From: Chitinophagales bacterium
Lineage (GTDB): Bacteria; Bacteroidota; Bacteroidia; Chitinophagales; CAVYQA01
Assembly: GCA_963770495.1 (NCBI GenBank)
Contig: CAVYQA010000030.1
Location: forward strand, 201,701 to 265,700
Reading direction: 5' to 3'
DNA: 64,000 nucleotides
The position numbers and the translations under genes were made by a program. Positions 27,710 to 33,715 of the stretch are shown here, piece after piece. The notes under the pieces were generated by a model, which saw only the letters and a program-made list of their open reading frames with translations, was not told the origin of the DNA and did not search any database. Every line of letters begins with the position of its first letter. The first letter of the stretch is position 1.

Positions 27710-28500
27710 GTCGTCGCCGTGTCTCCTTTTTGGCGCTGCCTTAAGCCTAAGCAGGGACACGGTAGTTTGTAGGCGCAACAACACATTTCATTTTCGTTTT
27801 GTACTTATAAGACTCAATGATTCCACATCTTTATAATGGGTTATTACAGTAATTTCGAAATCCAAACCTTCATAATATCTTGCCGAACTATCAACATAAT
27901 CGGTAAAACAAGATACTAACTGCCATTTCTTACTTACCGGGTTCGAATGAACATAATTCAGCTTCTGTAGCAAGAAATCCAACGTCAATATTATTTTTCC
28001 GTCAAAAGATGACTTAAAAACCTGGTGCTTTTTGCCTCTCTTCTTATCAGACGGCGTCACTTCCTTTTCCAGTATTTTTAAAATGGTATTTAGCTTTTTT
28101 TCTTTTAACCTTTCTACTATTTCATACGCCATAAAACGTTTACCATTGGATACCCAACGCTTAATGTCATATTTATTTTCTCTGAAATTTATAATCACAT
28201 GAACATGGTTGGGCATTATAACATAAGCAATGATCTGGTGATTATTTTTTCTTAAAACATTAAACCATTTATAAACTACATCATATGAATCTGTCATCTG
28301 AAAAAGAGAAAGCCAATTGCAACACGTGAACGTGATAAAATACAATCCATTCTTATCCTCTCTGTTTACCTTAACGGACATTCATATCGCTTTAATTCAC
28401 AAAATAAAAAAGATTCAGCTAATTTTAAGCTTAGATAATTCATTCCACCGTGTCCCTGCTTAGGCTTAAGGCAGCGCCAAAAAGGAGACACGGCGACGAC
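27710..28500. mobile_element. REPtron-like unit: a Y1/HUH transposase gene bracketed by perfect 54-bp inverted repeats
   Basis: 27710-27763 is the exact reverse complement of 28447-28500, checked base by base (54/54). Each arm contains an internal CCGTGTC...GACACGG stem. Confidence 0.8.
27788..28381 (-). CDS. REP-associated tyrosine (Y1, HUH) transposase-like protein
   Basis: ..GLYFITFTCCNWLSLF.. N-terminus, HUH motif IMPNHVHVI, and C-terminal YVHSNPVSKKWQL...YVDSSARYY, typical of the IS200/RAYT superfamily. Confidence 0.75.
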   Translation of the reverse strand: MSVKVNREDKNGLYFITFTCCNWLSLFQMTDSYDVVYKWFNVLRKNNHQIIAYVIMPNHVHVIINFRENKYDIKRWVSNGKRFMAYEIVERLKEKKLNTILKILEKEVTPSDKKRGKKHQVFKSSFDGKIILTLDFLLQKLNYVHSNPVSKKWQLVSCFTDYVDSSARYYEGLDFEITVITHYKDVESLSLISTKRK

Positions 28501-28948
28501 AGAATGAGAAAAAAAACATTCTCGTCACAAATATCTCTTTGGTTGAATCAAAGGGTGATAATGGCTTTACAGATTTGTTATGGCAAGCAACTTATATAGA
28601 TAGCAAGGGTCAAACTCAAACTACAACACAGTCAACAGGAGTTTCTTACAAATCAGTAGGAAAATACAATAAAAATGTTACAAAAAGAGTATTAGATTCC
28701 CTCAAAAAAACCAAATAATGAAATTGACAATCATACCGTTCAAAAAAATAAACGCAACTATATACATGACACACCTTGCGCCCCCACTTATTTTTTTGGC
28801 ATACATTTTGAAAAGATTTACCCTCATTCATTATGTACTACAACCGAAAACAATATCAAAAAACGGTTTAACACGCTCCAAAGAACGTGAGGCAATAGGT
28901 CTGCCATTTCAGTATAAATTTTCAATTAATTATTAAGAACAAATTTTT

Positions 28949-29932
28949 ATGGACTCAAAGAGTACAAAGTTTAACAGCATTTTAGATGTGTTAAAGAACT
29001 TTCCTGATGAAAAGTCTTGCAGGGAATATTTAGAGCGTTTACGTTGGCACGATGGTAAAATCGTTTGTCAGAAGTGCGGAAGTAATGATAAGATTTACAA
29101 GATACGTGACGGCAAACTTTATAAGTGTGCTAAGTGCCGTAAGCAGTTTACAGTTAGGTTGGGAACAATCTTTGAAGATAGCGCATTGCCTTTACAGACG
29201 TGGTTTATGGCATTGTTTCTTATTACAGCTCACAAGAAAGGCATAAGTAGTTTACAGTTGAGCCGTGACCTTTCTATCACCCAGAAAAGCGCATGGTTTG
29301 TGTTGCATAGAATACGTTATGCCGTTAAAACTAAGTCATTCAATAAGCCACTTGAAGGCATTGTGCAAATTGACGAAACTTACGTAGGCGGTCGAGGTCA
29401 AAACAAGCATCAAAGCCGTTGGGCTAAACGAACAAATGATACCGATTTAAGCCATTACCTAAGACCAACAGCAGGGCGCAGTACATTAACAAAAGCACCT
29501 GTTTTGGGTATCGTTGCTCAAGATGGTGACTTTGTGGGGTATTGTGTACCCGATGTTACAGGCAAAACCATTAAGCCGTTAATTCAAAAGCACGTTAAAG
29601 AGGGTTCTACTATTGTAACCGATGAATTTAGAATTTACCCTGCAATAACTAAAGAGTATTTACACCAAACTGTTAAGCACCGTTTAGGTGAATACGTTAG
29701 AGATGGTTATCACACTAATACAATAGAGGGCTTTTGGTCGTGGCTAAAGAGGTCAATATTTGGCATCTATCATCAAGTATCAAAAGAACATTTACAGGCG
29801 TATGTAGATGAGTGCGCCTACAAATACAACACTCGTAAAATAACCGATGTGGAACGATTTAATAAAACTCTGTCTTTACTTGACGGTAAATTAACTTATA
29901 AAGATTTAATAAAAAGGGGGGCAGAGAAATGA
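28949..29932 (+). CDS. IS1595-family DDE transposase (apparently intact)
   Basis: N-terminal Zn ribbon CQKCGS..YKCAKCRKQFTVRLGTIFEDS. DDE-type triad candidates VQIDETYVGG, IVTDEFRIY and HTNTIEGFWSWLKR. The stop overlaps the next start (ATGA at 29929-29932). Confidence 0.8.
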   Translation: MDSKSTKFNSILDVLKNFPDEKSCREYLERLRWHDGKIVCQKCGSNDKIYKIRDGKLYKCAKCRKQFTVRLGTIFEDSALPLQTWFMALFLITAHKKGISSLQLSRDLSITQKSAWFVLHRIRYAVKTKSFNKPLEGIVQIDETYVGGRGQNKHQSRWAKRTNDTDLSHYLRPTAGRSTLTKAPVLGIVAQDGDFVGYCVPDVTGKTIKPLIQKHVKEGSTIVTDEFRIYPAITKEYLHQTVKHRLGEYVRDGYHTNTIEGFWSWLKRSIFGIYHQVSKEHLQAYVDECAYKYNTRKITDVERFNKTLSLLDGKLTYKDLIKRGAEK

Positions 29933-30993
29933 GAAAGGAAATAAAAAATATATCTATATTTAATTCTAAATACGGAATACCGTTTACTATGGACAGAGTA
30001 GATTATCAATCAATGGTTATTCAGGATATAATAACATTGAACAAAAAAGGGGAATTAAATAAAACTCCTTGGTATCAAAGAAGGTCAGTTTGGAATACCC
30101 CTCAACAATCTTATTTGATAAATACCCTTTTGGAAAGAAAACCAATACCCGCAATTTATATTCGCTATTCTCTTGACCTTGAAAAGGGCGTAACAATAAA
30201 AGAGGTTGTAGATGGACAACAACGAGTAACTGCAATAATTGATTATATTGATAATGATAAATTTACCTCTTTTCATCCCGATTTAAAAAAGCGAGTAAAG
30301 TTTTCAAAATTATCCCCTATTCAACGAGAGAGATTTTTATTGACGGCTATCCCTGTGGGCTATTTGTTAGGAGCAAATGACGCAGATGTTATTGATATTT
30401 TTGCCCGTATTAATTCGGTTGCTAAAACCCTCAATAAGCAGGAAAAAAGAAATGCCTTATATAGCGGAGAATTTAAACAATTTGCTGTAAATGAATCTAC
30501 AAAGAGAGTAGAATTTTGGAAAGATTATCAAATATTTACCGGTAATAGTATCGCAAGAATGGATGAAGTACAATTTATTTCAGATGTTACTATTAATTTC
30601 ATAGAGGGCATTATAGCCTTTAATCAATCTAAAATTGATAAATATTATAAAGAGAATGAAGATGCGTTTGCAGAAAGTGAGGATATTTCAAAAAGATTTA
30701 ATAAAATTTTTGACGTTTTATTATCGTTAAATCCTAACACAATTAAACAAACTATATTTTTTAGGCAACCAATATTCTTTTCATTAATGCTTGTAATTGA
30801 CAGGATTAAAAAACCAAATATAAATATTATTCAAAAGGGACTTACAGAAATAGATAATAGATTTAATAGTGATGTTCCACTTGATAAAAGAACAAAGGAT
30901 GATTTAAATTTTTATAATGCCTGTTCGGCTACCACTCAATCATCTGAAAATAGAAAAACAAGAGATAAATATATAAGTAAATTTATTGAATAG
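29929..30993 (+). CDS. DUF262 (ParB/Srx-like NTPase/nuclease) domain protein without a DUF1524/HNH module
   Basis: TPWYQRRSVWNTPQQSYLINTLLERKPIPAIYI and VVDGQQRVTAIIDYI (DGQQR signature), then FARINSVAKTLNKQEKRNALY. At 354 aa there is no C-terminal His-Me nuclease motif visible. Confidence 0.75.
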   Translation: MRKEIKNISIFNSKYGIPFTMDRVDYQSMVIQDIITLNKKGELNKTPWYQRRSVWNTPQQSYLINTLLERKPIPAIYIRYSLDLEKGVTIKEVVDGQQRVTAIIDYIDNDKFTSFHPDLKKRVKFSKLSPIQRERFLLTAIPVGYLLGANDADVIDIFARINSVAKTLNKQEKRNALYSGEFKQFAVNESTKRVEFWKDYQIFTGNSIARMDEVQFISDVTINFIEGIIAFNQSKIDKYYKENEDAFAESEDISKRFNKIFDVLLSLNPNTIKQTIFFRQPIFFSLMLVIDRIKKPNINIIQKGLTEIDNRFNSDVPLDKRTKDDLNFYNACSATTQSSENRKTRDKYISKFIE

Positions 30994-31613
30994 TGCCGTC
31001 TGTAAATATTAATACCACTCACAAAAGAGGTATTGTAGATATTGGAAATTTAACTAATTATATTACTGATTCAGTAACATTAGAAGCCAAATATCAGTAT
31101 ATGATTGGCGAAGTAGTTATGCTAAGATTGTTTGGAATTTTAGAACATTCTATTGCTGAAATTGCCCTTAAATTAGCATGTGGTTGTAATTATAGAAACG
31201 GTAAAAATCCATTGGTTAAAAAACAATGTCGTAGCATGAGGGATGCTTTTTCTAATATGCTTGTATATAATAGAAGGAAACCAAAAAATCCAATGGATTT
31301 AAAGTGGACAAAGGCAAACTTGATAAAGGAAAGTATAGAACATGTATTAGATACTAATGATAGTTTTTATAATCAAATTCAAATTCATAATGCGGTAATT
31401 GATGAAATGAGAAGGATACGGAATCATGTTGCACATCGCTCTAATGGCACAAAAAAAGAATTTATTAGTATCCAGCAAAATATATATAACGGCAAAGTGG
31501 GTTTAACTATGGGGGCTTTTTTAGTATCTACTTCTCGTCACGCCACCTCAAACATTCAAAGATATATAGGAACTACAACTATTATTTTAAATGATATAAC
31601 AAGCGGAATATGA
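30993..31613 (+). CDS. Hypothetical protein with an Rx4H (HEPN-like) motif
   Basis: ..EMRRIRNHVAHRSNG.. contains R-N-x-x-A-H in an all-helical-looking context. The GTG start overlaps the DUF262 stop (TAGTG at 30991-30995). The start codon is uncertain. Confidence 0.4.
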   Translation: MPSVNINTTHKRGIVDIGNLTNYITDSVTLEAKYQYMIGEVVMLRLFGILEHSIAEIALKLACGCNYRNGKNPLVKKQCRSMRDAFSNMLVYNRRKPKNPMDLKWTKANLIKESIEHVLDTNDSFYNQIQIHNAVIDEMRRIRNHVAHRSNGTKKEFISIQQNIYNGKVGLTMGAFLVSTSRHATSNIQRYIGTTTIILNDITSGI

Positions 31614-31744
31614 AAGAAGAACAAAGGAAAAAGAAAACTAAATCAAAGCGACAACGGAACGAAAAGCCATTAAAGGTAGATATGCCTTTTGAGGAATTAA
31701 TGAGCCGGATAGTAAGAGTTAAACCAAAACATAAAAATCCTTAA
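31610..31744 (+). CDS. 44-aa highly basic micro-ORF (not in the ORF track)
   Basis: My own translation gives MKEEQRKKKTKSKRQRNEKPLKVDMPFEELMSRIVRVKPKHKNP. Its ATG overlaps the upstream stop (ATGA at 31610-31613). Its stop lies 2 nt before the next ATG (31747). Confidence 0.4.
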   Translation: MKEEQRKKKTKSKRQRNEKPLKVDMPFEELMSRIVRVKPKHKNP

Positions 31745-31746
31745 CT

Positions 31747-32205
31747 ATGATAAAATATTTGAAATCACACTCCCAAATCATACTTGCAATACTTTCCCCC
31801 TTATCCACAATCATTTTTGGATTAATGGCTGAGTGGGATAAAATCACTAACTCAAAGGTTCTATCATTTCATAATGTTTTCACTTACTTGTTTTGGATAG
31901 GCATTGTTTGGACAATAATCTATGTTCAGAACTTGTTTTTTCAGGGTGTTAATCTTAAAAAGCTAAAAAAAGAAATTGATGCGGATAATGCTTACAAATT
32001 TGCTGAATTGAGAAAGGACATAAATTTAGAATTTAGGTATATGCGCCTTTTATCTCGTATGAATAGTGGATTAGAATGGCATCACGATAGTATGGTAACA
32101 AGTCGCAATATGAATTTTGATAATAATTATACGGCAGATGAAAAAATATTTTTAAGAGATTATAGACAAAGATTTAATCAAGTTTATGGACACGGTAATT
32201 ATTAA
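31747..32205 (+). CDS. Small 2-TM membrane protein with a helical cytoplasmic tail
   Basis: Two hydrophobic helices (IILAILSPLSTIIFGLMA; FTYLFWIGIVWTIIYV) followed by a charged ~85-aa tail. It is the last cistron of the coupled cassette. Confidence 0.5.
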   Translation: MIKYLKSHSQIILAILSPLSTIIFGLMAEWDKITNSKVLSFHNVFTYLFWIGIVWTIIYVQNLFFQGVNLKKLKKEIDADNAYKFAELRKDINLEFRYMRLLSRMNSGLEWHHDSMVTSRNMNFDNNYTADEKIFLRDYRQRFNQVYGHGNY

Positions 32206-32397
32206 GGCGTTCTTTGAATGATTAAAAATTAAAAAATGGCTACAAATTTGACAGGCAGATATTTATTTCGTGGGTGTGTCAAGTGAGTAGTTCCCAAAAT
32301 AAAATTAATCTCGACTTTAAGTAAGCAACAATTAAAGGAAATATTAAATGATTTTATTCAATCAGGAGATATAAGTAAAAATTATTGGTTTAGGAAC

Positions 32398-32787
32398 ATG
32401 AATATAAAGAAAAAGTATATTGGTGAAGTATATAACAATGAGTTTATAATAGAGCCTCCTGTTAATTTTTTTTATTCACCTGCCTTTCAGGTCCAAGGAG
32501 AAATTTTGGAGAATAAAAGTTCTATTTTTGTGAATTTAAAATTTAAATTACCGTCTCGGTTTGCAATTGTATTATTATTGGGTTTTCTTGCTTGTTCTAT
32601 TATTATCCCATTTATTTATCATTTATTTCAGGATGATACAATAAATAGTAGATTCCTACCCCTATTAATTATGATTCCATTCCTTGCTTACTTCGTGACG
32701 ATAATATCATTTAATGTTGAATTGAATTTGTTTATCAAACGATTTAGTAATGTTCAGCCGTGGCAGGTGTTCTGGGTTGAAAATTGA
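32398..32787 (+). CDS. Hypothetical 2-TM protein whose 3' end is encoded by a REP hairpin
   Basis: Hydrophobic segments FAIVLLLGFLACSIIIPFIY and LPLLIMIPFLAYFVTIISF. The last ~11 codons (..QPWQVFWVEN) lie inside the repeat at 32753-32803. Confidence 0.4.
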   Translation: MNIKKKYIGEVYNNEFIIEPPVNFFYSPAFQVQGEILENKSSIFVNLKFKLPSRFAIVLLLGFLACSIIIPFIYHLFQDDTINSRFLPLLIMIPFLAYFVTIISFNVELNLFIKRFSNVQPWQVFWVEN

Positions 32788-33441
32788 AAAGCCCACCTGC
32801 CACTGAAGTGCAGGTAAATAATGCGCTTTTTATATTTGTGCATGGAACCGGATAAACTTTATTTCTTTACTGCTACCATATTAGAATGGAAACCGTTATT
32901 GAAAGAAGATATCTTTAAGGATATAGTAATGGATAGCTTAAAGTTTTTAGTAAAGGAGAAAAGAATATTGCTGAGAGCATTTGTAATAATGCCCAATCAC
33001 ATACACCTGATGTGGAACATACTCACACCTAATAAACCATCAGATGTTCAGCGTGATTTTCTGAAATATACTTCGCAGCAGATAATTACAATACTGAAAA
33101 ACCGTAATGATGGTTATTGGCTTAATCAACTAAAAGTAAAAGCTGTTGATCGCCGCTACCAGGTTTGGGAACGCCGGCCGTTGGCAATAGAATTATATAC
33201 TCCTGACGTTAAATTCCAAAAATTAAAGTATATTCACCATAATCCTGTGCAGGAAAAATGGCAATTATGTAAGCTGCCTGAAGAGTATAAATATAGTTCA
33301 GCGGAGTTTTATTATTTGGAGAAACAGGAAGGGGATTTTATAACTCATTATTTGGAATATGGAATGTAGAAAGTATATGGCTCGGCTGCGGTGGCAGGTG
33401 GGCTTAGCTTTTTCCTTTGCTGAACACCTGCCACGGCTGAA
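32753..33441. mobile_element. Second REPtron-like unit: a Y1 transposase gene between two inverted REP hairpins
   Basis: The outer arm TTCAGCCGTGGCAGGTGTTC (32753-32772) is the reverse complement of 33422-33441 (20/20). The inner arm AAGCCCACCTGCCAC (32789-32803) is the reverse complement of 33391-33405 (15/15). Each side folds as GTGGCAGGTG / CACCTGCCAC. Confidence 0.75.
32821..33369 (+). CDS. REP-associated tyrosine (Y1, HUH) transposase-like protein, second type
   Basis: ..KLYFFTATILEWKPLL.., HUH motif IMPNHIHLMW, and YIHHNPVQEKWQL..YKYSSAEFYY. The start may be the internal ATG at 32842. Confidence 0.75.
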   Translation: MRFLYLCMEPDKLYFFTATILEWKPLLKEDIFKDIVMDSLKFLVKEKRILLRAFVIMPNHIHLMWNILTPNKPSDVQRDFLKYTSQQIITILKNRNDGYWLNQLKVKAVDRRYQVWERRPLAIELYTPDVKFQKLKYIHHNPVQEKWQLCKLPEEYKYSSAEFYYLEKQEGDFITHYLEYGM

Positions 33442-33715
33442 GTTTCTGCACTATTTCATAAGCCATAAATCGTTTTCCATTACTTACATATTGATTAATG
33501 CTTTTAGCGGTGTTGGCAATATGAATAAGCGCATGAACATGATTAGGCATAATTACAAAAGCGGCAATATTATTTCCGTCGCGTTTTAACGCATCAAACC
33601 AGTTGAATACAGATTGATAAGCATTTGCAATTTCAAATAGCGAAATCCATTTATGACAGGTTATAGAAATAAAATATATCCCTTCACCCTTTTCAATTTT
33701 TCTTCTGACAGTCAT
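33404..33715 (-). pseudogene. Truncated paralogue of the 27788..28381 Y1 transposase
   Basis: It aligns with the full-length copy over GIYFISITCHKWISLF..IMPNHVHALI..SNGKRFMAYEIVQKL. It then diverges into REP-encoded QPWQVFSKGKS and stops at 103 aa, against 197 aa for the full copy. Confidence 0.7.

What the first reader, a model, noticed from the sequence alone, without database searches (positions are those of the whole stretch)
28949..32205. Five translationally coupled cistrons: IS1595-type transposase, DUF262, Rx4H (HEPN-like) protein, basic micro-ORF, 2-TM protein. Candidate undescribed defence module.
Seen in sequence: five same-strand ORFs with almost no intergenic DNA. The junctions are ATGA (29929-29932), TAGTG (30991-30995), ATGA (31610-31613) and TAA-ct-ATG (31742-31749). 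By eye the stretch is clearly more A+T-rich than the flanking housekeeping genes, and it sits between two Y1-transposase units. Established knowledge: DUF262 is the ParB/Srx-like NTPase/nuclease module of GmrSD/BrxU/SspE-type anti-phage enzymes, where it is normally fused to a DUF1524 His-Me nuclease. HEPN Rx4-6H proteins are RNase effectors of abortive-infection and toxin-antitoxin systems. Small 2-TM proteins are recurrent membrane effectors in conflict systems. Inference: here the DUF262 protein lacks DUF1524, and a separate HEPN-like protein plus a membrane protein may supply the effector arm. I do not recognise this as a named system.
Basis: partly seen in the sequence, partly recalled or inferred. 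Interest (0 to 1): 0.8.

Follow-up and report, generated by a model that had tools for sequence, protein, structure and literature searches.

The report
Insertion sequence carrying defence-type gene cargo
The five tightly packed genes are not a five-part defence system: they are one small jumping gene (an IS1595-type insertion sequence) whose cargo is a two-gene DUF262 + HEPN module built like the proven E. coli anti-phage system PD-T4-2, showing that such modules can ride on minimal transposons.

Summary
In detail: the five same-strand ORFs, their overlapping junctions, the low G+C and the flanking Y1-transposase units are all present.

The interpretation needs re-drawing. Window 28753-32295 (3,543 bp) is a single IS1595-family "transporter IS". 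It has 23-bp terminal inverted repeats and a perfect 8-bp target duplication (AAAATAAA).
- **Transposase:** intact DDE enzyme with a zinc ribbon.
- **44-aa micro-protein:** a backbone gene, found in all nine sampled elements of this IS clade and in none of 88 transposase-free loci.
- **Defence-type module:** only DUF262 + the 206-aa protein. It recurs as an autonomous, abutting pair in those 88 loci from about ten phyla. Its only invariant residues are the HEPN R-x4-H dyad.
- **152-aa membrane protein:** variable distal cargo and nearly an orphan.

The pair has the architecture of PD-T4-2 (DUF262 + RiboL-PSP-type HEPN), validated in E. coli in 2022. It is a distinct sister family: PADLOC's PD-T4-2_B models do not match it. 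A sister IS (L128) carries a genuine PD-T4-2 in the same slot.

Verdict: a new variant of known kinds. No anti-phage phenotype was tested. The IS1595 defence-cargo slot and the micro-protein are the new points.

The parts
28745..28752 (.). Left copy of the 8-bp target-site duplication AAAATAAA
   Evidence: Identical 8-mer lies immediately outside both inverted repeats. 0 of 2000 shuffles give an IR of at least 17/23 plus an adjacent perfect 8-bp repeat.
28753..28775 (+). Left terminal inverted repeat (IRL), CGCAACTATATACATGACACACC
   Evidence: 17/23 complementary to 32273-32295. It shares the terminal motif of the IRs of related elements L116, L122, L124, L127, L128 and L134.
28949..29932 (+). 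IS1595-family DDE transposase with N-terminal zinc ribbon (327 aa), apparently intact
   Evidence: Pfam DDE_Tnp_IS1595 4.9e-38 and Zn_ribbon_IS1595 5.8e-13. NCBIfam transpos_IS1595 200.5 bits (cut-off 75). The DETY / TDEF / IEGFW motifs are present. More than 7,400 relatives.
29929..30993 (+). DUF262 (ParB/Srx-fold, NsnA/PD-T4-2A-like) protein. Core starts at Met21 (nt 29989). The 20-codon leader from 29929 overlaps the tnp stop.
   Evidence: Pfam GmrSD_N 70.6 bits. PADLOC NsnA 9.6e-32 (full length) and PD-T4-2_A 1e-20. DGQQR motif is invariant. AF2 pLDDT 82.8; top folds are ParB-CTP and BrxU. The leader is conserved only in IS-borne copies.
30993..31613 (+). 206-aa HEPN-type partner (R143-N-x3-H148), putative RNase effector
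   Evidence: In 78 family members the only invariant columns are R143 and H148. All recurrent Pfam matches are HEPN families but below threshold. The gene abuts DUF262 in 88 loci. The AF2 model is all-alpha, pLDDT 85.8.
31610..31744 (+). 44-aa lysine-rich micro-protein: conserved backbone gene of this IS1595 clade, function unknown
   Evidence: Homologues (core L-x-M-x-FEEAM) are present in L116, L120, L122, L127, L128, L134, L135 and L137. None is found in the transposase-free loci. 16 K+R of 44 residues.
31747..32205 (+). 152-aa membrane protein (one clear and one probable TM segment): variable distal cargo, near-orphan
   Evidence: No relative in any fetched locus. One relative (37% identity) among 1.84 billion representatives. 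Other elements carry different genes at this position.
32273..32295 (-). Right terminal inverted repeat (IRR); reverse complement GGGAACTACTCACTTGACACACC
   Evidence: Closely resembles the L127 and L128 IRs (GGTAAYTACATGYTTGACRMACCCA).
32296..32303 (.). Right copy of the 8-bp target-site duplication AAAATAAA

Best explanation
Window 28753-32295 is one insertion of an IS1595-family transporter IS, meaning an insertion sequence that carries passenger genes.

**Shown from sequence.**
- The DDE transposase acts on the 23-bp terminal inverted repeats and moves the whole 3.5-kb unit, leaving an 8-bp target duplication.
- Elements of this clade have a fixed layout: IRL, tnp, a cargo slot, a conserved 38-50 aa basic micro-protein gene, optional further cargo, IRR.
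- In the window the slot holds a two-gene module: a DUF262 protein (ParB/Srx-fold NTP-binding domain plus a helical C-terminal domain) followed by a HEPN-type protein.
- The module is joined to the tnp reading frame by a short leader, so it is probably co-transcribed and translationally coupled with tnp.

**Inferred.**
- The pair works like PD-T4-2. The DUF262 protein would sense an infection cue (foreign or modified nucleic acid, NTP-dependent).
- It would then license the HEPN partner, whose R143/H148 dyad cleaves RNA and stops phage replication. This could happen at the cost of the infected cell.
- The element gains persistence because its cargo benefits the host.
- The micro-protein serves the IS itself (transposition or regulation) rather than defence.
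- The 152-aa membrane protein is incidental distal cargo.
For: **IS identity.**
- Transposase family calls are above the curated cut-offs.
- IRs and a perfect 8-bp TSD are present; 0 of 2000 shuffles reproduce them.
- Three further elements have homologous IRs and perfect 8-bp TSDs: L122 ATAATTCG, L128 TTTAAGTA, L134 CTATCTTT.
- L128's IRs enclose exactly tnp + DUF262 + HEPN + micro-ORF.
- Transporter ISs were defined on the IS1595 family (PMC3129680, citing Siguier 2009).

**Pair as an autonomous module.**
- DUF262 followed by a 206-aa homologue, abutting, occurs in 88 loci from about ten phyla, with no transposase, micro-ORF or 2-TM gene there.
- No recurrent third gene was found.
- A more distant DUF262 clade has a homologous partner (hhalign 98.2%).

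**HEPN assignment.**
- R143 and H148 are the only invariant columns in 78 sequences.
- Pfam hits are HEPN families only.

**PD-T4-2 link.**
- Authors record it as 'DUF262, HEPN'; HHpred gives RiboL-PSP HEPN 97.8%.
- An H127A mutant in an R-N-x3-H motif was constructed. The main text says the four mutated residues were essential for protection.
- Deleting the native system raises T4 plaquing.
- The sister IS L128 carries a genuine PD-T4-2 in the same slot (A 2.2e-122, B 6.6e-48).

**Micro-ORF as backbone.** It is present in elements with unrelated cargo (L127, L134, L135, L137).

**Coupling.** The leader is conserved with synonymous changes only in IS-borne copies.
Against: - The window's IRs are imperfect (17/23).
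- The element is single-copy in the window, and only this one strain carries it. No empty site was available, so recent mobility is not shown.
- Pfam HEPN scores are below the gathering threshold (21.4 against 28.4 bits).
- PADLOC PD-T4-2_B does not match the 206-aa protein. Profile comparison with real PD-T4-2B is not significant. Functional equivalence therefore rests on architecture and on the shared slot.
- No phenotype exists for this family.
- It has no matches in the plasmid or phage collections.
- Defence-island context of the free pairs is only sporadic: Dcm methylases, integrases, Vsr.
- Whether PD-T4-2 is abortive or direct could not be read from the text held.
Confidence: 0.78

Rival explanations
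1. All five cistrons form one integrated, undescribed defence system. DUF262 is the sensor, HEPN and the 2-TM protein are effectors, the micro-ORF is a regulator, and the transposase is recruited or incidental.
For: The genes are tightly abutted on one strand. tnp + DUF262 + HEPN + micro-ORF recur together in L116, L120, L122 and L128.
Against: - The pair is autonomous in 88 loci without the other three genes.
- The micro-ORF also occurs in elements lacking DUF262 and HEPN (L127, L134, L135, L137).
- The 2-TM gene recurs nowhere.
- IRs and TSD bound the block as a transposon.
Confidence: 0.04
2. The DUF262-HEPN pair on the IS is mainly an addiction (toxin-antitoxin-like) module that stabilises the element. 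It would be selected for the transposon's benefit rather than for phage defence.
For: - By established knowledge, HEPN proteins are frequent toxins of TA systems.
- Other elements of the clade carry TA-like distal cargo: a PemK-like toxin plus partner in L120 and L122, and DUF5678 plus a partner in L116.
- Cargo is coupled to tnp expression.
Against: - The same pair is widespread without any transposase.
- The closest characterised architecture, PD-T4-2, protects against T4 in its native strain.
- A genuine PD-T4-2 occupies the same slot in L128.
- The two roles are not mutually exclusive.
Confidence: 0.12
3. Chance juxtaposition: a simple IS1595 element inserted just upstream of a resident DUF262-HEPN pair, and the outer repeat is fortuitous.
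For: - The closest DUF262 relatives (66-69% identity) are transposase-free.
- tnp has a higher G+C than the cargo.
Against: - No IR lies between the tnp stop and DUF262. The tnp stop overlaps the DUF262 leader ATG.
- The same order, bounded by outer IRs and TSDs, recurs in elements whose transposases are only 46-59% identical.
- The IR + TSD combination is not reproduced in 2000 shuffles.
Confidence: 0.03
4. DUF262 and HEPN are accessory transposition proteins of this IS lineage, for example a ParB-like NTPase for target choice or end processing.
For: ParB-fold proteins bind DNA and NTPs. There is a long-term association with this transposase clade, with two different DUF262 types in the same slot.
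Against: Elements of the same clade transposed with entirely different cargo: L134 has a TSD and no DUF262 or HEPN, and L127 likewise lacks them. The pair is mostly found without any transposase.
Confidence: 0.03

Closest known systems
PD-T4-2 (Vassallo et al. 2022, E. coli ECOR65; PADLOC and DefenseFinder system)
   Same: - Two abutting genes: a DUF262-only protein of about 330-365 aa (no DUF1524), then a small HEPN protein with an R-N-x3-H motif whose best Pfam relative is RiboL-PSP HEPN.
- The DUF262 N-domains are homologous (28% identity, E 1e-18; hhalign 98.3%).
- A genuine PD-T4-2 sits in the same slot of a sister IS.
   Different: - The partner is 206 aa against 167 aa and is not matched by any PD-T4-2_B model or by profile comparison.
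- PD-T4-2_A matches only the N-terminal part at 72 bits, against 538 bits for the real protein.
- The carrier differs: an IS1595 transposon here, the hotspot of a P4-like satellite in E. coli.
- There is no phenotype for this family.
IS1595-family transporter ISs (Siguier, Gagnevin and Chandler 2009; ISfinder '+' subgroups)
   Same: A single DDE transposase with a zinc ribbon, short terminal IRs, and passenger genes inside the IRs with total length 2.7-4.2 kb. The 8-bp target duplication matches my recollection of ISfinder's figure for the family.
   Different: No source in the searchable library reports a DUF262/HEPN or PD-T4-2 cargo, and I found no description there of a conserved micro-protein gene at the right end. 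Subgroup assignment was not checked against ISfinder.
RiboL-PSP-HEPN / ParB operons (Anantharaman et al. 2013, PMC3710099)
   Same: That paper's table lists RiboL-PSP-HEPN 'in operon with ParB', and MAE_28990 HEPN with a ParB nuclease and methylases. This is the same gene pairing.
   Different: It was a comparative-genomics prediction only, and no transposon link was noted. The window's protein scores below the Pfam threshold for that family.
Menshen (NsnABC)
   Same: The DUF262 protein matches the NsnA model over its full length (9.6e-32). That is the ParB-DUF262 domain plus the helical C-terminal domain described for NsnA-like proteins (PMC12065111).
   Different: There is no NsnB ATPase and no NsnC effector next to it.
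GmrSD / BrxU / SspE type IV restriction enzymes
   Same: A DUF262 N-terminal NTPase domain with the DGQQR motif. BrxU is among the best fold matches.
   Different: There is no DUF1524 His-Me nuclease domain. The effector is a separate HEPN-type protein.

Membership tests
IS1595 family insertion sequence / transporter IS | DDE transposase of the IS1595 type with an N-terminal zinc ribbon | tested here: met
   Pfam PF12762 131 bits (cut-off 27) and PF12760 49 bits. NCBIfam NF033547 200.5 bits (cut-off 75).
IS1595 family insertion sequence / transporter IS | Terminal inverted repeats bounding the element | tested here: met
   28753-28775 and 32273-32295, 17/23 complementary. They are homologous to the IRs (23/26 to 24/27) of five related elements.
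IS1595 family insertion sequence / transporter IS | 8-bp direct target duplication (family value recalled from ISfinder, not re-checked here) | tested here: met
   AAAATAAA on both sides. Perfect 8-bp TSDs also in L122, L128 and L134. 0 of 2000 shuffles reproduce this.
IS1595 family insertion sequence / transporter IS | Passenger genes located inside the IRs | tested here: met
   Four ORFs lie between the tnp stop and IRR.
IS1595 family insertion sequence / transporter IS | Demonstrated mobility (several copies, or an empty site in a related genome) | not testable with these tools
   Single copy in the window.
PD-T4-2 | DUF262-only protein matching PD-T4-2_A | tested here: inconclusive
   PADLOC PD-T4-2_A 1e-20, 72 bits, residues 32-265 only, against 538 and 407 bits for genuine members. 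28% identity to E. coli PD-T4-2A.
PD-T4-2 | HEPN partner matching PD-T4-2_B | tested here: not met
   No PD-T4-2_B hit at E up to 1. hhalign against real PD-T4-2B gives 0.9-11% probability.
PD-T4-2 | Two-gene operon: DUF262, then a small HEPN protein with a catalytic R-x4-H | tested here: met
   1-nt overlap TAGTG. R143 and H148 are invariant. PD-T4-2B has R122-N-A-A-A-H127.
PD-T4-2 | Protection against phage | not testable with these tools
   Needs cloning and phage challenge.
HEPN superfamily | Conserved R-x4-6-H motif | tested here: met
   R143 and H148 are the only invariant columns in 78 sequences. N144 and A147 are at least 90% conserved.
HEPN superfamily | Match to a curated HEPN profile above threshold | tested here: not met
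   PF18735 21.4 bits against 28.4. Across the family, RiboL-PSP matches 14/78 members, Swt1-HEPN 14/78 and Cthe_2314-HEPN 4/78, all sub-threshold. No non-HEPN family recurs.
HEPN superfamily | All-alpha HEPN fold | tested here: inconclusive
Menshen (NsnABC) | NsnA-like DUF262 protein | tested here: met
   PADLOC NsnA 9.6e-32, residues 23-354 against model positions 45-380 of 385.
Menshen (NsnABC) | Adjacent NsnB ATPase and NsnC effector | tested here: not met
   No such genes in the window or beside the pair in other loci.
GmrSD / BrxU / SspE | DUF262 fused to a DUF1524 His-Me nuclease | tested here: not met
   Only GmrSD_N was found. The C-terminal half is helical with no DUF1524 match.

The most novel reading that the evidence does not exclude
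This Bacteroidota IS1595 clade may be a dedicated shuttle for small anti-phage modules, built as follows.
- **Hotspot:** a fixed cargo slot between tnp and a conserved 38-50 aa basic micro-protein. It holds PD-T4-2, the PD-T4-2-like DUF262 + 206-aa HEPN family, other HEPN-like genes and unknown pairs.
- **Coupling:** cargo expression is translationally coupled to the transposase.
- **Micro-protein:** a previously unrecognised transposition or regulatory factor.
- **Cargo family:** the DUF262 + 206-aa HEPN family would itself be a new, phylum-spanning defence system, missed by current PADLOC models.
Probability: 0.35. Interest if true: 0.65.

Novelty: new variant of a known kind. Interest (0 to 1): 0.5.

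Why it matters
**1. Correcting the boundary.** Treating the five genes as one system would have misassigned three of them. The testable unit is the 1.6-kb DUF262 + HEPN pair.

**2. A gap in defence annotation.** That pair belongs to a large family: more than 1,100 DUF262 relatives at E up to 1e-10, and 88 paired loci in about ten phyla. It shares the design of PD-T4-2 but is not matched by PADLOC's PD-T4-2_B models, so the system would be incomplete by PADLOC's models. DefenseFinder and the PADLOC pipeline themselves were not run here.

**3. Defence genes on a minimal transposon.** Defence systems are known on prophages, satellites, ICEs and Tn7-like transposons. Here a transposase-plus-IRs element carries them in a fixed slot, and a sister element carries a bona fide PD-T4-2. 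That gives a guilt-by-slot handle for finding new small systems in Bacteroidota, much as the P2/P4 hotspots do in E. coli.

**4. An unannotated IS gene.** The conserved micro-protein is an unannotated gene of an abundant IS clade, and it may matter for IS biology.

Tried and rejected
**Negative or superseded searches.**
- A first IR search (transposase alone, or the whole block) gave only chance-level matches. The ends became visible only after the IRs of relatives L116 and L122 were found.
- The first context survey (113 loci) showed no transposase anywhere. That suggested a one-off insertion. Loci of relatives with the N-terminal leader overturned this.
- The plasmid and phage collections hold no relative of the 206-aa protein.
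- The micro-ORF matched nothing in Pfam, NCBIfam, PADLOC or PHROGs.
- Sigma-70 promoter and terminator scans were not above the shuffle expectation, and no terminator lies inside the element. That scan is not designed for Bacteroidota promoters.

**Inconclusive structural and profile tests.**
- Foldseek of the 206-aa model against the PDB gave no significant hit.
- An hmmsearch of the family profile against PDB sequences gave nothing.
- hhalign of the 206-aa family against real PD-T4-2B was not significant.

**Hypotheses rejected.**
- The 152-aa protein showed no similarity to the 2-TM protein of L127 or to other distal cargo.
- No IS remnants were found near the closest transposase-free pairs.

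**Could not be determined.**
- Whether PD-T4-2 acts by abortive infection; this is not stated in the text held.
- The source organism's name. Bacteroidota is inferred from the nearest relatives.

Full report
**1. Observation**

The five + strand ORFs exist exactly as described.

| ORF | Coordinates | Length |
|---|---|---|
| Transposase | 28949-29932 | 327 aa |
| DUF262 | 29929-30993 | 354 aa |
| HEPN-type | 30993-31613 | 206 aa, GTG start |
| Micro-ORF | 31610-31744 | 44 aa |
| Membrane protein | 31747-32205 | 152 aa |

- **Junctions:** ATGA, TAGTG, ATGA and TAA-ct-ATG are as stated.
- **First ORF:** an IS1595 transposase (Pfam 131 bits; NCBIfam 200.5 bits against a cut-off of 75).
- **Second ORF:** DUF262/GmrSD_N (70.6 bits against 33.2) with no DUF1524.
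- **Third ORF:** carries R143-N-H-V-A-H148.
- **Composition:** the stretch is 32.6% G+C against 38.5-39.9% in the flanks.
- **Flanks:** RAYT-like Y1 transposase genes, each inside a long inverted repeat, lie on both sides.

**2. Which genes belong together**

The DUF262 protein has more than 1,100 relatives at E up to 1e-10, mostly 333 aa. I fetched 113 loci encoding relatives of it or of the 206-aa protein.
- In 88 of them, DUF262 is followed directly by a homologue of the 206-aa protein, overlapping or within a few bases.
- These loci come from Bacteroidota, Alpha-, Beta- and Gammaproteobacteria, Desulfobacterota, Actinomycetota, Chloroflexota, Acidobacteriota, Planctomycetota, Nitrospirota, Armatimonadota and Spirochaetota.
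- None of them has the transposase, the micro-ORF or the 152-aa gene.
- No third gene recurs beside the pair. Only cytosine methyltransferases, integrases and Vsr appear sporadically.
- A more distant DUF262 clade (28-38% identity) also has a downstream 185-230 aa gene with R-N-x3-H. Its family is homologous to the 206-aa family (hhalign 98.2%, E 5e-14, motifs aligned).

The conserved functional unit is therefore the two-gene pair.

**3. The 206-aa protein**

*Supporting HEPN:*
- In an alignment of 78 members at 23-60% identity, the only invariant columns are R143 and H148. N144 and A147 are at least 90% conserved.
- Scanning every member against Pfam, the only recurrent matches are HEPN families: RiboL-PSP 14/78, Swt1-like 14/78 and Cthe_2314-like 4/78. 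All are below the gathering score.
- The AlphaFold model is confident and all-alpha (pLDDT 85.8, pTM 0.84).

*Not confirming it:*
- Foldseek against the PDB gave nothing significant.

HEPN membership rests on the motif and on profile evidence. The fold test is inconclusive.

**4. The DUF262 protein**

- The DGQQR motif is invariant.
- The model (pLDDT 82.8) matches ParB-CTP, BrxU, Noc, PadC and sulfiredoxin best.
- PADLOC's NsnA model matches over its full length (9.6e-32). PD-T4-2_A matches the N-terminal two thirds (1e-20).

**5. What is known**

- Anantharaman et al. 2013 list 'Ribo L-PSP-HEPN ... operon with ParB' (PMC3710099).
- Vassallo et al. 2022 isolated PD-T4-2 from ECOR65 and recorded it as 'DUF262, HEPN'. 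It is two ORFs in 1,540 bp. Their HHpred gives DUF262 at 99.7% for A and HEPN_RiboL-PSP at 97.8% for B.
- Deleting PD-T4-2 in its native strain raised T4 plaquing.
- They built PD-T4-2B H127A, in the motif P-R-N-A-A-A-H. They report that the four mutated residues were essential for protection.

Using their lambda-red primer sequence I recovered the real locus, present in 17 of 5,426 complete E. coli genomes. It lies in the hotspot of a P4-like satellite next to the integrase and ssrA.

| Direct comparison | Result |
|---|---|
| Window DUF262 vs PD-T4-2A | 28% identity over the N-domain, E 1e-18 |
| DUF262 family profile vs PD-T4-2A | hhalign 98.3% |
| 206-aa family vs PD-T4-2B | no detectable similarity beyond the motif |
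| PADLOC PD-T4-2_B models vs window partner | no match |

The pair has the PD-T4-2 architecture but is a separate sister family.

**6. The transposase is not a bystander**

A few DUF262 relatives share the window's 20-residue N-terminal extension. Their contigs (L116, L120, L122) show the same order: IS1595 transposase, DUF262, HEPN, then a 38-50 aa ORF.

| Protein | Identity to the window |
|---|---|
| Transposase | 46-48% |
| DUF262 | 59-62% |
| HEPN | 45-49% |

The small ORF has a conserved core, L-x-M-x-FEEAM, between lysine-rich tails.

*Ends of the elements:*
- L116 has 23/26 inverted repeats at 199 and 4082. L122 has the same ends plus a perfect 8-bp duplication, ATAATTCG.
- The window has the related ends CGCAACTATATACATGACACACC (28753-28775) and its 17/23 inverted partner (32273-32295). 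AAAATAAA flanks both sides, and the element is 3,543 bp.
- No shuffle out of 2,000 reproduced an IR plus an adjacent perfect 8-bp repeat.

All five cistrons lie inside one transposon.

**7. Backbone versus cargo**

The transposase has more than 7,400 relatives. I sampled the nearest ones.

| Locus | Transposase identity to window | Ends | Cargo | Micro-ORF |
|---|---|---|---|---|
| L124 | 90% | same IRL | different sequence after the tnp stop | not seen (contig ends) |
| L127 | 60% | 24/25 IRs | unrelated cargo | yes |
| L128, L130 | 59%, 56% | L128: 23/27 IRs, TSD TTTAAGTA | L128: 415-aa DUF262, 165-aa R-x4-H protein; L130: 420-aa DUF262, then the contig ends | L128: yes; L130: contig ends |
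| L134 (Allomuricauda isolate) | 52% | 24/27 IRs, TSD CTATCTTT | 289-aa + 157-aa genes | yes |
| L135 | 52% | not defined | other cargo | yes (minus strand) |
| L137 | 56% | not defined | other cargo | yes |

PADLOC identifies the L128 cargo as genuine PD-T4-2 (A 2.2e-122, B 6.6e-48).

- **Micro-protein:** a backbone gene of this IS clade (alignment A6). It is absent from all transposase-free pairs.
- **Cargo slot:** the genes between tnp and the micro-ORF are exchangeable.
- **Incongruent phylogenies:** the window's backbone is nearest to L124, L127 and L128, but its cargo is nearest to that of L116 and L122 and to free pairs.
- **152-aa protein:** occupies the variable distal position, which elsewhere holds TA-like genes. 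It has a single 37%-identical relative among 1.84 billion representatives.

**8. Coupling**

- In IS-borne copies, the 46-71 nt between the tnp stop and the canonical MDRV start form an open in-frame leader. An ATG sits at or near the tnp stop.
- The leader peptide is semi-conserved, with synonymous third-position changes.
- Free copies have in-frame stops in this region.
- The leader has low model confidence.
- No terminator-like site lies inside the element.

This fits co-transcription and translational coupling of the cargo to tnp.

**9. Mechanism**

*Shown:* the transposon anatomy, the autonomy and conservation of the pair, and the invariant R/H dyad.

*Inferred by analogy with PD-T4-2 and with DUF262 enzymes (GmrSD, BrxU, SspE):* the DUF262 protein is an NTP-dependent nucleic-acid sensor that controls the HEPN RNase partner. 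Protection may be abortive. The roles of the micro-protein and the membrane protein are unknown.

**10. Verdict**

- This is a new variant of known kinds: a PD-T4-2-like sister family carried by an IS1595 transporter IS.
- No paper in the searchable library links IS1595 with DUF262.
- Interest is moderate. The five-gene 'new system' dissolves. The IS1595 cargo slot holding PD-T4-2-type modules, and the conserved micro-protein, are useful new observations that can be tested directly.

Noticed in passing
window 27710-28500 and 32753-33441 (also 33404-33715): Two RAYT-like Y1 transposase genes score 71.6 and 74 bits on REP_Tyr_transpos, just under the cut-off of 80. Each is bracketed by a long inverted repeat: 54 nt perfect, and 56 nt at 79%. 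A third, truncated Y1 ORF lies on the minus strand at 33404-33715. The IS1595 element sits between these units.
   Followed up: partly
window 32398-32787: A 129-aa ORF with two hydrophobic segments lies just outside the element's right end. Its 3' end runs into the inverted-repeat arm of the second Y1 unit. It has no family match.
   Followed up: partly
L124 7258-9007; L125; L126: A transposase 90% identical to the window's has the same IRL motif 743 nt upstream, with extra ORFs between IRL and tnp. Homology to the window stops 17 nt before the tnp stop. Three independent assemblies all break about 25 nt after the stop, which suggests variable cargo in the population.
   Followed up: partly
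L133 4968-6603 (E. coli 2009C-3133, NZ_CP013025.1): The genuine PD-T4-2 pair lies in a P4-like satellite, between psu/delta-like genes and the integrase at ssrA. It is present in 17 of 5,426 complete E. coli genomes. RefSeq annotates the second gene as 'HEPN domain-containing protein'.
   Followed up: yes
L116 3254-3891; L120 2638-3502; L122 3125-4013: Distal cargo of the sister elements looks like toxin-antitoxin pairs. L116 has DUF5678 plus a retropepsin-like aspartyl-protease-fold protein, with weak hits to PADLOC candidate PDC-M52B. L120 and L122 have a PemK-like toxin plus a 171-175 aa partner, in opposite orientations in the two elements.
   Followed up: partly
L134 4934-7591 (Allomuricauda sp. 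M10, JAJGBN010000001.1): A clean IS1595 transporter IS in an isolate genome, with 24/27 IRs and TSD CTATCTTT. It carries an unknown 289-aa protein, a 157-aa multi-TM protein and the micro-ORF. This could be another small conflict system, and the strain is cultured and so tractable.
   Followed up: partly
L137 6155-6637: The cargo of another relative is a 160-aa protein with an R-N-D-F-I-H motif and a weak Cthe_2314-like HEPN match (E 0.004). This is a second, unrelated HEPN-like gene in the same slot.
   Followed up: no
L006 12696-12730: An IS1595-type left end (GGCGACTATAT...TTGATACACCC) lies 4 kb downstream of a transposase-free DUF262-HEPN pair. It probably belongs to a separate element of the same clade.
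   Followed up: no
L067, L075 and two further loci (cluster of 4) upstream of distant-clade DUF262 genes: In the distant DUF262-HEPN clade, a DNA methyltransferase-like gene with an SPPY motif directly precedes DUF262 in three loci; in a fourth the cluster member lies downstream on the opposite strand. This recalls the 'MAE_28990 HEPN with ParB nuclease and DNA methylase' operons of Anantharaman 2013.
   Followed up: no
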